Shown here: in pieces, positions 34,901-59,380 of the stretch
Layout: every line of letters starts with the position of its first letter
Position numbering within the stretch: position 1 is the stretch's first letter
Source: the human T2T-CHM13v2.0 reference genome, Homo sapiens
Direction: 5' to 3' (one strand)
Assembly: GCF_009914755.1 (NCBI RefSeq)
Contig: NC_060930.1
DNA length: 64,000 bases
Program-made: the position numbers and the translations under genes
Notes under the pieces: generated by a model
Database searches by the model: none
Seen by the model: only the letters and a program-made list of their open reading frames with translations
Told to the model about the DNA's origin: nothing

Positions 34901-37900
34901 TCAGGGTGAGTAAAGACTTGGGGGTTATTGGTGGTCTTCTGTGTCCACTCATGGTCAGTATTAGCAGTAAAAAGTGGAAGAGGCACCTGAATTCATGGTC
35001 TGAGGTGAGGGGTGTTGAGATGGCCCCTGGTCTCAGTGCTTTTTGTTCTTATTTACTTGATTTTCTAGATATTTCTTAATACTTCTTCCCTTGAATAAGT
35101 AAGGGACAGTAGACAAAAAAGTAGAACTAGCTATGAGAAGATGTGGGTTTTGTCTTGTTCTTTCATTGTGCCTGAGCAAGTGACAAATATTTTGGACTTT
35201 AGGTTCCTCACCACGGGTCAAATGAAAAGATGACAAAAAGGCACAAATAAAAGGTGGTATTATCATTATTGCTGTGGTATAGGGGAAGACACACACAATT
35301 TGAAGATAGAAGACCAGTATTTAATGTTCAGTTGTTTACAATACGTTTACAATAGCTCTATATCTTTGAACAAATTAACTACATAGAGCCTAGAATTGGA
35401 ATAAACAGTAACAATACCCATCTCCTGAAGTTGTAAGAATTAAGCAAAATTGATGTGTGAAAAGATCTAAGGGACAATTGTTAGTAGTGCTTTCATATTT
35501 TTTGGTGGTTACTGCCTTTGCTGTTGAATTGAACAGTTAAATCCAAATGCTAAAAAGCATCTCTTTCTGAAGTAATAACACTATGTCCTCACTGGCTATT
35601 GATATTTTGTTATAAATGCAGATAGAGAGAATAATTTTAATAGAGCAGTTGTGGGAGAAAGTAACGGCACACTTCTTCATCTGAAGGAGATGGGAGTTTG
35701 ACAGGAATGACTGCAAGCAAATTTCACGTGCCTCGTAATTTTGCCTCAGACTGCCTCTGTGTTCTGTACATTCACTCACAACTGTGAGCAGCCCATAAAT
35801 ATTCAATACTCAACAATGGGAAGAGGGAAATTTATGTGGGAGAAAGTGACTTAGGGCCACAGACCTTTGGGAAAATCAGTCAGGCAAGAGACAGCTCGGT
35901 TCACTGGTTCCTATTAGCCGTTTATACGAAATATAGCAATTGCTCTGCTGGAGGAGGACAGGGCTATTTCTTTTCTCTAGAGGGTCAGCTTTCGGGGAAA
36001 AAGCAGGCGGTAGAGCTGAAGCAGTGAGGAGCCCTTAGGTGCTAGAGGTTGAAGCCTCTTTGTGGAAGGAATGCTGAAGAGATATTGAGTCGTAGATTTT
36101 AGAAGGGGCTGCTTCAGAGAAGAGCAGACGGGTGGATGGTAGCCACCAGAGGTTTCTTTTTATCTTTACAAAGAAGCCAAAAAGAAACCTCATTTCTCTT
36201 TGTTGTTATTAAGAAGTTATGCAAGTGAGTAATGTGCAGGTCTGCAGAGCAAGGTTAAGTGATGTGAAGCTAGTTTAGAATTATTGCACAAACCAGAACA
36301 AGTGAATTAAACTGGATTAATCAATATCCTTATTCTTTTCTTTTCTGAGCCCTGAAATGTTTTTGCTTATAAGGGGACACCCTCTTGGGAAATATTTTGA
36401 AATCAAATAATAAAGCTAATGTATTGAATATGGGATTGTGGAAATAAATTTTGGGTAATTTTAACAGTCTATTACAAGTTAAACTCATTTTTTCCTCCTG
36501 AATTGAATCCTCTGAGATTTTGGTAGAAGTTGGTGAACCAAAGGAAACAAATGTGGCCAAGAGCTCTTTCTGGAATGTTATTCTTTCCTACACCTGGGTA
36601 TCCAGATGTAGTCTCCCATATTTTGTAAACAGCACTGCTCCACCCTGGCTGTGTAATGGAGACACCTGGGGAATTTTGAAAAATGACTGCTGCCTGGGCC
36701 CCAACTATAGAGATTTGGCTTTGTCTGGATTGGTCTTGAGCTTCCGTTGTTTAATTGTTTACCTCTCCCAGATGACTCTCTTGTACATTGTTGAAAGCTA
36801 ACGAACCAGAGGCTGAGAAAGGAAGACAATGGCAGTACAGCTCATGGAGTCATAGGCCTTTGCCTACACAGAGACCAGTGAGGCCACCTATGGGCAGTGA
36901 CAGGGAAAAGAGGCTGCAGATGCTAGGCCTATCTCAAATGGAGAAGAAATGTTCAAAAGGCACTGGGGGTTCGAACATTTGATTGGGGGTATGCAGTGAA
37001 GGATGGAGTCATTTGCATTCCTGGTACTGAGTGAAGATAACAAGGGAGAACAAAGCTGCAAACTCTGGCATTGCTATCATAATCAAACCTCCCCTGACCA
37101 CCTTGGCTTGCAATGCTGTCTTCATAAAGAACATTCCTTCAGTAGGTGAATCACAAGGCCTACATATATAGTGCAGGTAGGTGTGCAATTAAGTTTGTTC
37201 TGGAAAACAGGAAACTCATGATGGCATACGAAATGTGCTGTAAATGAGTGGCTTGTTTTTGGAAAACTCTGCCCAAATAATTCCTTGACTTTGAATATTT
37301 CAAATTGAATTATTATTTTCTGTCTGTTGCTAATTCAAGATTTGTGCACATAATCCTCATAGTAGTCGTTTGACATATACATATGTATGTATATGTACAT
37401 ATGTATTTATGTGTGTGTATATGTAGATATTAAATTGCATTTTTCTTCTCCTATATCTAGGCTGCACACCGTAACCACAGTCAGGAAGTCTTCTGCTGTG
37501 CTGGAAATTCATGAAGAGGTATGAAGATGGATACAGCATCACTATGGACACTCGTATTCACTTATTTGCCTCTTCACTGCTGTAAACATTTGATTGTGGC
37601 CACACTTTTGTCTTTATATTATATTTTTATATTTTGTACAGTTTTCCTCAAGCCAGGGGTTGCTGGGAAATTCCAATGGCTAAATGGAAACTAGATTACA
37701 GGATACTAATTTAAGGAATATTATCAGGATGAGCGTCCCTGGAACTTTCTTTTCTCGTACTTTAAAACCTATTGTCATGCCAAACAGAATTGAATGTGAG
37801 ATAGTGAGAAAAATGTTGAGAAGTTTTATATTAGGGGGTTATTTAATTTTATTACATCATTGTCATTATTGTTTCTTAATGTCGGGTTAGGGAGGCAGTT

Positions 37901-58554: not shown

Positions 58555-59380
58555 GAAAATATACTGCATTGGCATTCTGAGTCATTCTGGTTTTGTTGGT
58601 ATTGTTTATTTTAAATTTAAAGATTCAGCAACACCGTGGGTAATAAATGAGAGGCTTTGACAGAACTAAAATAAGTGTGCCTTACGTTAAAGGGATCAGC
58701 CAAATTACACAATTCAGTAATTCTCCATTTGCCCATAACTTTGATTTGTGTGGACTTTTCTAAAACCACAAGGTTTAGGTAAAAATGCTCAGTAGTTGGG
58801 AATATTTCTAAACATTTGGCAGCACTGGGAGCTATCCAAGAAACTCAGGATATCTCTGTGAAGCATGTTACTTATCTCCTTGTCTGAGCAAAAGGAAATA
58901 TCTGAAGTTCACCCTCTAAAAACTGGAATAACCAATAAATATTCTATTGTTATCTTTATGCCTTCATCTTAGCAGGTAACATTTTCTCGTTAGAAGAGCT
59001 GGTTTTCCCCACTGGCTGTAAGTATTTAAGGCAATCTGTGCATATTGCAACAAAGGCCCCAGAAATTTAGAGGGACACACTGTCCTATAAACCCAGCACC
59101 ATAGCAAACATCTCAATCCCATATTATGGCCTTTTGGGAAAGAAACAAAACAGAAAACATGGAAGAGAGTTACTCATGAGAGTATGAGTGTCTCTTCACT
59201 CTCATGAGGTGAAAACATTTGAAACCTTCTAACATATTGCTACTGACAGGTAGCGCTATTTCACAAAGCCATGTAAAACAAAGGCTCTGCTATGCTCTAC
59301 CAATACCACCAATCAATCAAATGAAAAACACCAAGTCAACCCCTAATCTGAGTTGCTTCAAGATTTATTGCTAGAGGTGC

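What the first reader, a model, noticed from the sequence alone, without database searches (positions are those of the whole stretch)
37461..58612. OPN5 C-terminal switch: one phase-0 donor, at least four mutually exclusive tails
Exon 6 ends exactly on a codon boundary (residue 352). The next 21 kb offers several in-frame endings: read-through -V* (353 aa), 38766 -SGVWDEE* (359 aa), MIR-derived -WE* (354 aa) and the distal 30-aa tail (382 aa). There is also an optional 18-nt microexon. Each has its own 3' UTR or poly(A) option. GPCR tails control phosphorylation, arrestin binding, PDZ scaffolding and trafficking, so alternative last-exon choice could diversify a single UV opsin by tissue. The reference human tail may be a lineage-specific newcomer rather than the ortholog of the mouse tail used in functional studies.
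Basis: partly seen in the sequence, partly recalled or inferred. Interest (0 to 1): 0.8.

Follow-up and report, generated by a model that had tools for sequence, protein, structure and literature searches.

The report
OPN5 last-exon turnover, not proven switch
The human UV opsin gene OPN5 ends in a different last exon from the mouse gene, and an intact copy of the mouse-type ending still lies 8 kb further on, but nothing here shows that human cells switch between endings.

Summary
The sequence facts mostly hold. Exon 6 (37461-37518) ends in phase 0 at residue 352.
- read-through V* (353 aa)
- SGVWDEE* at 38766 (359 aa)
- WE* at 49767, the RefSeq ending (354 aa)
- a 30-residue tail at 57785 (382 aa)

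With a phase-0 donor, every downstream AG gives some tail, so the endings are not evidence in themselves.

Comparison with 120 vertebrate OPN5 proteins sorts them:
- V* is the usual vertebrate ending. 49 of 114 aligned proteins stop one residue after the column of E352.
- The 57785 tail matches the tails of Old World monkey (29/30), colugo (18/29) and rat (11/23). It is therefore the ortholog of the rodent tail.
- WE* appears only in the chimpanzee representative.
- SGVWDEE* appears in 0 of 120 proteins, and its exon-like layout occurs at chance frequency.
- 18-nt "microexons" are at shuffle level (56 observed, 55 expected).
- The MIR origin could not be confirmed.

The human distal acceptor looks weak: GAG|G with a competing AAG 2 nt upstream, where rat has a pyrimidine at -3. 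RefSeq lists no transcript that uses 38766 or 57785.

The "newcomer tail" idea is supported. A regulated tissue switch remains untested.

The parts
37461..37518 (+). OPN5 exon 6, common to all endings. It ends in phase 0 after residue 352 (...[19 protein letters not shown]).
   Evidence: cumulative CDS of 1056 nt, AG acceptor, GT donor.
37519..37524 (+). GTATGA: the 5' splice site of intron 6, which is also a Val codon plus TGA stop. Read-through gives the 353-aa V* form, the usual vertebrate type of ending.
   Evidence: sequence; 49 of 114 aligned OPN5 representatives end exactly one residue after this column. 9 of these end in V, including seal, bat, snub-nosed monkey, birds and a turtle.
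38766..38789 (+). Candidate ORF SGVWDEE* behind a strong CAG acceptor, with ATTAAA at 38851-38856 followed by a (CAA)n run. Judged a chance configuration.
   Evidence: sequence. 0 of 120 OPN5 representatives carry this tail. Not in the RefSeq table. The same configuration occurs in 3 of 16 strong acceptors here, 9 of 40 on the antisense strand and 7 of 53 upstream.
43647..43777 (+). 131-nt cassette exon of other RefSeq transcripts (AG/GT). After exon 6 it adds DKGRLWHQ...NEAVG and shifts exon 7 to [12 protein letters not shown].
   Evidence: sequence, splice sites; the joined translation equals the end of P0099 (human opsin-5 isoform X1, a predicted model).
49767..52165 (+). RefSeq exon 7, the reference last exon. 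Coding part 49767-49775 = WE*. Strong acceptor (ttttttcttctctacag). AATAAA at 52143, 22 nt before the annotated end.
   Evidence: Among 120 representatives only chimpanzee P0003 ends ...EEWE.
57785..57877 (+). Distal coding exon: 30 codons (GRNKSASPNNLDADSHSNDDDCGKKYEPIF) plus TGA. It is the ortholog of the rodent, colugo and Old World monkey OPN5 tail and is unannotated in human RefSeq.
   Evidence: ORF; 382-aa Cercopithecinae Opsin-5; 29/30 identical to monkey, 18/29 to colugo, 11/23 to rat; single copy in the genome.
57781..57784 (+). Tandem AGs (AAG then GAG, 2 nt apart) at the distal acceptor. Only the second is in frame, and it has G at -3. The first would give a 45-aa out-of-frame tail.
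   Evidence: sequence; out-of-frame translation; the rat junction inferred from two protein frames has a pyrimidine at -3 and no upstream AG.
58549..58554 (+). AATAAA followed by a GT/T-rich stretch. Plausible poly(A) signal for the distal exon, about 670 nt after its stop.

Best explanation
This is evolutionary turnover of the last coding exon of OPN5. It leaves several endings readable in the human sequence, but probably only one is in regular use.

Step 1 (shown by comparison): in most vertebrates the exon-6 equivalent is the last coding exon, and the protein stops one residue after the glutamate that aligns with human E352. In human the Val codon and TGA of this ending lie inside the 5' splice site (GAG|GTATGA).

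Step 2 (shown by comparison): in at least primates, colugo and rodents this site is used as a donor and joined to a distal exon that adds 25-30 residues. The human copy of that exon is intact at 57785-57877.

Step 3 (inferred): in the human/chimpanzee lineage a nearer exon at 49767, with a much stronger acceptor, captures the splice and adds only WE. This gives a protein almost as short as the ancestral one. Meanwhile the human distal acceptor is poor: G at -3 and a frame-shifting AAG 2 nt upstream.

Step 4 (shown by controls): the SGVWDEE ORF at 38766 and any 18-nt microexon are chance configurations.

On this reading the human distal tail and the V* read-through are minor or unused products.
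For: - Phase-0 end and the four tails.
- Usual ending: 49 of 114 aligned representatives (from 120; 6 lacked the NPxIYQ anchor and were left out) end one residue after the E352 column, and 46 of the 49 have E there. The last residue is M 22, V 9, I 8, A 3, others 7.
- Orthology of the distal exon. A 40-aa query around the tail found a 382-aa Cercopithecinae Opsin-5 (E 1e-10) whose tail differs at 1 of 30 residues. Colugo matches 18/29 and rat 11/23, with a shared block SH(S/R)ND(G/D)DCGKK. The human +2 frame matches the end of rat Q7TQN6 at 26/45, so the DNA itself is alignable.
- Mouse having the longer tail (377 vs 354 aa) is in print (Peirson 2009, PMC2781857, passage).
- WE was seen only in chimpanzee P0003. 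The four representatives with the exact human exon-6 peptide continue in four different ways: distal tail, WE, V and cassette.
- Acceptor strength. 49767 and 38766 are among 16 strong acceptors. 57785 has 10 of 20 pyrimidines and G at -3. The rat junction is reconstructed as YAG|AGC at the only feasible offset of 26 tried.
- RefSeq (table given with the finding) annotates no exon at 38766 or 57785.
- Chance controls.
Against: - The human distal ORF is still intact and differs from monkey at only 1 of 30 residues. This is fewer than the roughly 4 changes I would expect under neutrality (rough estimate from a recalled ~6% divergence; Poisson P about 0.09), so some use in catarrhines cannot be excluded.
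- It has a good AATAAA plus GT-rich element.
- Haltaufderhyde 2015 (PMC4303996, section 9 read) could not amplify exon 1-exon 7 products from human melanocytes or keratinocytes, though brain worked. Exon 3-6 products were obtained from keratinocytes. That would fit another 3' end in skin.
- The monkey, colugo, seal, bat and snub-nosed monkey proteins are database models, mostly predicted, so they do not show which ending those animals use.
- The claim that WE is a newcomer rests on its absence from 118 other cluster representatives. Members inside the 90% clusters were not visible.
- The rat acceptor is inferred from protein frames of two rat species, not read from DNA.
Confidence: 0.6

Rival explanations
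1. One reading: a regulated alternative-last-exon switch. Human tissues choose among V* (intronic polyadenylation), WE* (49767) and the 30-aa distal tail (57785), giving receptors with different trafficking or desensitisation.
For: - One phase-0 donor is shared.
- 49767 and 57785 each have an acceptor, a stop and AATAAA.
- The distal ORF is intact and 29/30 identical to monkey.
- Four different endings are modelled after the identical exon-6 peptide in catarrhines.
- Exon-7 primers failed in skin cells but worked in brain, while exons 3-6 amplified.
- Upton 2021 (PMC8058843, passages) states that several potential OPN5 isoforms exist with no function or tissue pattern reported.
- Melanopsin has long and short C-terminal isoforms with different roles (same paper).
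Against: - The RefSeq table has no transcript with 57785, 38766 or an extended exon 6.
- The in-frame distal acceptor is GAG with a competing AAG 2 nt upstream.
- There is no canonical hexamer for 1.3 kb after exon 6.
- The exon-6 Ser/Thr cluster is common to all forms.
- Six literature searches found no paper on OPN5 C-terminal isoforms.
- The failed exon 1-7 PCR may only reflect low abundance and a long amplicon.
Confidence: 0.25
2. The ancestral form persists. In some human tissues intron 6 is not spliced, the transcript is polyadenylated within the intron, and the 353-aa V* protein is made, as modelled for seal, bat and snub-nosed monkey. The distal exon is dead.
For: - V* is the commonest vertebrate ending.
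- It is the model for three mammalian representatives, P0004, P0005 and P0014.
- The donor GAG|GTATGA is the least consensus-like of the gene's six donors; the other five all have A at +4.
- The skin PCR result.
Against: - The first AATAAA/ATTAAA is 1.33 kb downstream. Between them only the weak variant ACTAAA occurs at 38161, with two more weak variants at 38813 and 38824 just before it (the list of variants is recalled).
- No RefSeq exon extends past 37518.
- The mammalian V* proteins are predicted models.
Confidence: 0.12
3. Annotation artefact: the long tail is only a product of gene-prediction pipelines, and the similarity at 57785 is coincidental.
For: P0001, P0018 and P0002 are automated models. 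The 534-aa rat Q7TQN6 model reads the same DNA in another frame, which shows how unreliable models are here.
Against: - Identity of 29/30, 18/29 and 11/23 with a shared 11-residue block, E 1e-10 against 5.8 billion sequences.
- The tails join at the same phase-0 position in three orders.
- The mouse 377-aa protein with a longer tail is reported in print (the passage says 'predicted protein').
Confidence: 0.03

Closest known systems
Mouse/rat Opn5 long C-terminal tail (mouse 377 aa, NP_861418; Rattus rattus 376 aa, P0002)
   Same: The tail joins at the same phase-0 junction after ...EIH(E/Q)E. It is encoded by DNA alignable with human 57783-57920 and shares the block SH(S/R)ND(G/D)DCGKK.
   Different: The rodent tail stops 5 codons earlier, so it lacks YEPIF. 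Rat has a pyrimidine at -3 of the acceptor where human has G. In human RefSeq the exon is not annotated, and the reference protein uses 49767 instead.
Usual vertebrate Opn5m C-terminus (birds, turtles, teleosts: ...LEV, ...IEM)
   Same: Human read-through V* reproduces it exactly in register. The reference WE* is only one residue longer.
   Different: In human the stop lies inside a used 5' splice site, so the ancestral ending is normally spliced away.
Melanopsin OPN4L/OPN4S, C-terminal isoforms made by alternative splicing
   Same: [quoted passage not shown] They have distinct cell types and behaviours, according to the Upton 2021 passage that cites Pires 2009 and Jagannath 2015.
   Different: For OPN4 both isoforms are shown at the RNA and protein level in one species. 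For human OPN5 only one ending has transcript support in the table given.
GPCRs with read-through versus spliced tails, such as thromboxane receptor alpha/beta and EP3 and 5-HT4 tail variants (recalled, not checked in any call)
   Same: A common core up to a fixed point after helix 8, then tails chosen by splicing or by not splicing.
   Different: Those variants are experimentally established and differ in long tails. Here two of the three credible endings are only 1-2 residues.

Membership tests
Alternative-last-exon C-terminal switch of a GPCR | One shared upstream donor in a fixed phase | tested here: met
   Exon 6 ends at CDS nt 1056, phase 0, donor GT.
Alternative-last-exon C-terminal switch of a GPCR | Two or more downstream terminal exons, each with an acceptor, an in-frame stop and a poly(A) signal | tested here: met
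   49767 has a strong acceptor, WE* and AATAAA at 52143. 57785 has a weak GAG acceptor, 30 aa plus stop and AATAAA at 58549. This is by sequence only.
Alternative-last-exon C-terminal switch of a GPCR | Transcripts carrying each junction in the same species, ideally with tissue differences | not testable with these tools
   No RNA data are reachable. The RefSeq table lists only 49767 and cassette 43647-43777. There is one indirect hint from failed exon-7 PCR in skin cells.
Alternative-last-exon C-terminal switch of a GPCR | The alternative tail is conserved in other species | tested here: met
   The distal tail is found in monkey, colugo and rat representatives. This is not met for SGVWDEE (0 of 120).
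Opn5m (mammalian-type opsin 5) | 7TM rhodopsin-family protein orthologous to vertebrate opsin-5 | tested here: met
   The monkey ortholog that carries the human exon-6 peptide hits 184 proteins at E<=1e-50. The listed ones are named opsin-5 and carry PF00001. The nearest solved structures are rhodopsins.
MIR-derived (exonised SINE) last exon | Similarity of the exon to other copies or the consensus of MIR | tested here: inconclusive
   Only a self match in the own genome and no match within the window. Both methods miss repeats of about 70% identity, and no repeat library was available.
Optional in-frame microexon | An AG/GT-flanked open 18-nt unit that stands out from background | tested here: not met
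   56 candidates against 55.2 +/- 7.7 in shuffles. 0 of 56 pass the polypyrimidine, -3 and +3 filters.

The most novel reading that the evidence does not exclude
Human OPN5 may still make a second receptor form outside the brain: either the 382-aa mouse-type tail from the unannotated exon at 57785 or the ancestral 353-aa V* form. The ancestral stop codon sits inside the exon-6 5' splice site, so recognition of that single site would decide between a tail-less ancestral receptor and extended tails. Exon-7-based primers and probes would then miss OPN5 in tissues such as skin.
Probability: 0.2. Interest if true: 0.55.

Novelty: new member of a known kind. Interest (0 to 1): 0.35.

Why it matters
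Mouse Opn5 (long tail) and human OPN5 (WE ending) are compared directly in signalling and optogenetic work. It is worth knowing that their C-termini come from different exons, and that most vertebrates have almost no tail past this point. Assays built on human exon 7 would miss any transcript ending elsewhere, which could explain the failed full-length amplification from skin cells. The locus is also a compact example of a stop codon embedded in a 5' splice site. That arrangement lets new last exons be tried without disturbing the receptor core. The practical effect on receptor behaviour may be small, because the Ser/Thr cluster encoded by exon 6 is common to all forms.

Tried and rejected
2. 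The 30-aa tail has no match in PDB sequences at E<=10. No OPN5 chain is among the 30 opsin hits at E<=1e-20, so there is no structural information on any tail.
3. A tail-only search (residues 341-382 of P0001) returned only 2 candidates, the monkey itself and colugo. Rat was not even a candidate, so this search cannot date the exon.
4. I considered that SGVWDEE might be an old acidic alternative exon, because a few non-mammals end ...E|TEETD...G|SEETL or ...E|SLSWTEEIA. I rejected this. Close relatives of those species stop one residue after the same column with the same first residue (T, S, S), so these look like stop-codon shifts within the same exon, not a separate exon.
5. Rfam scan of 37000-59500: only the annotated U1 pseudogene passes its threshold, and nothing lies at any candidate exon.
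6. Own-genome and within-window similarity searches for the repeat origin of the 38766, 43647, 49767 and 57785 regions found self matches only, plus one 44-nt, 75% match of no weight.
7. Frame-specific constraint between human and rat is not evident. The coding frame matches at 11/23. The +2 frame matches at 26/45 and stays similar 43 nt past the stop.
8. Tarttelin 2003 is not held. What I say about it beyond the Peirson 2009 passage is recalled.
9. The supplementary alignment figures of Upton 2021 and Haltaufderhyde 2015 were not opened. They may show OPN5 C-termini.
10. I did not run the representative-library search, structure prediction or complex prediction, because none bears on the choice of tail.
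Full report
**What is in the sequence**

The window holds human OPN5. Summing the RefSeq coding parts gives 1056 nt at the end of exon 6 (37461-37518). The exon therefore ends on a codon boundary after residue 352, and the full CDS gives 354 residues ending ...[21 protein letters not shown].

| Ending | Position | Reads as | Length |
|---|---|---|---|
| Read-through | donor GAG\|GTATGA | V* | 353 aa |
| Candidate exon | 38766, after a CAG acceptor | SGVWDEE* | 359 aa |
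| RefSeq exon 7 | 49767 | WE* | 354 aa |
| Distal exon | 57785 | GRNKSASPNNLDADSHSNDDDCGKKYEPIF* | 382 aa |

The RefSeq cassette exon 43647-43777 (131 nt, AG/GT) shifts exon 7 to ...[12 protein letters not shown]. This equals the end of the predicted human isoform X1, P0099.

**Is this more than chance?**

Not in itself. With a phase-0 donor, every downstream AG yields an in-frame ending.
- 1987 AG sites lie between 37519 and 63899. The median tail is 12 aa, 326 tails are 30 aa or longer, and 22 are exactly 30 aa.
- The layout that makes 38766 look like a terminal exon is a strong acceptor, a stop, and AATAAA/ATTAAA within 150 nt. It occurs at 3 of 16 strong acceptors on the + strand of 37519-63000, at 9 of 40 on the antisense strand of the same interval, and at 7 of 53 on the + strand upstream.
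- Open 18-nt AG..GT units number 56, against 55.2 +/- 7.7 in shuffles. None of the 56 passes modest splice filters.

The 38766 exon and the microexon are therefore what background gives.

**Comparative evidence**

A 40-aa query covering the distal ORF found one protein among 5.8 billion: a 382-aa Opsin-5 of Cercopithecinae (E 1e-10). The query was 30 residues plus 10 intron-encoded residues, added to reach the tool's minimum after one search was rejected as too short. The monkey protein's end is ...AVLEIHEE followed by the same 30 residues with one difference.

Searching with that protein returned 184 hits at E<=1e-50, of which 120 cluster representatives were listed. I aligned the C-termini of the 114 that contain the NPxIYQ anchor. 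The 6 without it were left out of the counts, among them colugo P0018. Relative to the column of human E352:
- 49 of 114 stop exactly one residue after it. 46 of those have E in that column. The last residue is M 22, V 9, I 8, A 3 and others 7.
- 9 stop two residues after it: 8 squamates and chimpanzee WE.
- 28 stop before it: truncated models and many anurans.
- 28 have 0 or 3-136 residues after it.

The nine V-enders are seal, bat, snub-nosed monkey, five birds and a turtle.

The long tail occurs in monkey P0001, Rattus rattus P0002 (376 aa) and colugo P0018. Human identity to them is 29/30, 18/29 and 11/23, with a shared block SH(S/R)ND(G/D)DCGKK. WE occurs only in chimpanzee P0003. The four representatives that contain the exact human exon-6 peptide continue in four ways: distal tail, WE, V and cassette.

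Most of these proteins are automated models. They show what the genomes can encode, not what is expressed. Members hidden inside the 90% clusters were not visible.

**Anatomy of the sites**

- The 49767 acceptor (ttttttcttctctacag|T) and the 38766 acceptor are among the 16 strongest in the interval.
- The in-frame distal acceptor is ttcttttaaagag|G. It has 10 of 20 pyrimidines and G at -3. A second AG lies 2 nt upstream, and its use would give a 45-aa out-of-frame tail.
- That out-of-frame translation matches the end of the old 534-aa rat model Q7TQN6 at 26/45 and stays similar for 43 nt beyond the coding stop. So the DNA is alignable between human and rat, but the conservation is not clearly frame-specific.
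- The two rat frames (P0002 and P0007) fit one DNA at only 1 of 26 offsets. This lets the rat junction be read as ..AAY(A/C)G|AGCAGT: a pyrimidine at -3 and no upstream AG. The inference is that the human acceptor is weakened relative to rodents. That G at -3 is rare at acceptors is recalled knowledge.
- Poly(A) signals: AATAAA at 52143 lies 22 nt before the RefSeq end. AATAAA at 58549 is followed by a GT/T-rich stretch. There is no canonical hexamer between 37519 and the ATTAAA at 38851, which is followed by a (CAA)n run. V* and SGVWDEE* would therefore share one site.
- The MIR origin of the 49767 exon could not be confirmed. The searches found self matches only and were insensitive.

**Literature**

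Six full-text searches found no paper on OPN5 C-terminal isoforms.
[quoted passage not shown] The length difference is therefore known. The passage does not give the exon-level cause.
- Upton 2021 (PMC8058843, passages) says that several potential OPN5 isoforms exist with no function or tissue pattern reported, that most substitutions are in the termini, and that splice variants were excluded from its analysis.
- Kojima 2011 (PMC3197025, passages and section 12) used human clone BC126194 and a mouse brain cDNA, both with a C-terminal 1D4 tag.
- Sato 2023 (PMC10432815, passages) used NP_859528 and NP_861418.
- Haltaufderhyde 2015 (PMC4303996, passages and section 9 part 1) found extra exons only between exons 1-2 and 3-4. 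The paper also reports that exon 1-exon 7 primers failed in melanocytes and keratinocytes while working in brain, whereas exons 3-6 amplified from keratinocytes. That fits a different 3' end in skin, or simply low abundance.
- Tarttelin 2003 is not held.

**Most likely explanation (confidence 0.6)**

This is last-exon turnover.
- The ancestral stop sits inside what became a 5' splice site.
- A distal exon was added in a lineage that includes primates, colugo and rodents. How much older it is cannot be told here.
- A nearer exon with a strong acceptor later took over in the human/chimpanzee lineage. It restored an almost tail-less protein, while the distal acceptor decayed.

Shown: the register of the endings, the orthology of the distal exon, and the chance status of 38766 and the microexon. 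Inferred: the order of events, the weakness of the human acceptor in vivo, and the restriction of WE to some primates.

Rivals:
- a real tissue-regulated switch (0.25)
- persistence of the V* form through intronic polyadenylation (0.12)
- pure annotation artefact (0.03)

**Comparison with what is known, and verdict**

The arrangement works like the alternative-last-exon tail variants of other GPCRs. Melanopsin long and short forms are the nearest opsin case. It meets the sequence-level criteria for that kind. The defining criterion could not be tested here: transcripts with each junction in one species.

All tails hang beyond the part of the protein that aligns with solved opsins, which ends near residues 314-328. 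All share the exon-6 Ser/Thr cluster.

Novelty is modest: a new member of a known kind. Interest is 0.35. The most novel reading still open is a second, unannotated human OPN5 ending used outside the brain. I put it at probability about 0.2 and interest 0.55 if true.

Noticed in passing
window 49174-49334 (+): A U1 snRNA pseudogene (Rfam U1, 71.4 bits, gathering threshold 69.5, full-length model match) lies 433 nt upstream of the acceptor of the reference last exon. It is annotated as RNU1-105P. I saw no link to the exon.
   Followed up: partly
window 38857-38900 (+): A (CAA)n microsatellite starts directly after the ATTAAA at 38851. It looks like the tail of an old retroposed element, but the flanking 411 nt are single copy in the genome search.
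   Followed up: partly
P0007 (rat Q7TQN6, 534 aa) versus window 57783-57920: An old rat 'GPR136' protein model reads the distal OPN5 exon in the wrong frame and runs through intron-like sequence. Its end still aligns 26/45 with the human +2 frame. This made it possible to infer the rat splice junction from proteins alone.
   Followed up: yes
window 47618-47895 (+): Two sub-threshold matches to metazoan SRP RNA, plus mir-1268 and mir-3135 hits. This is the usual signature of an Alu element, and it coincides with the masked stretch 47610-47921.
   Followed up: no
window 57210-57285: Sub-threshold mir-297 matches on both strands inside the masked stretch 56798-57254. This is probably a simple TG/CA-type repeat about 500 nt upstream of the distal exon.
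   Followed up: no
C-termini of P0069, P0072, P0075, P0085 (teleosts) and P0028, P0053, P0081: Several non-mammalian OPN5 models extend 5-13 residues past the usual stop. They begin with the same residue that ends their relatives' proteins, which suggests repeated loss or shift of the terminal stop codon rather than new exons.
   Followed up: partly
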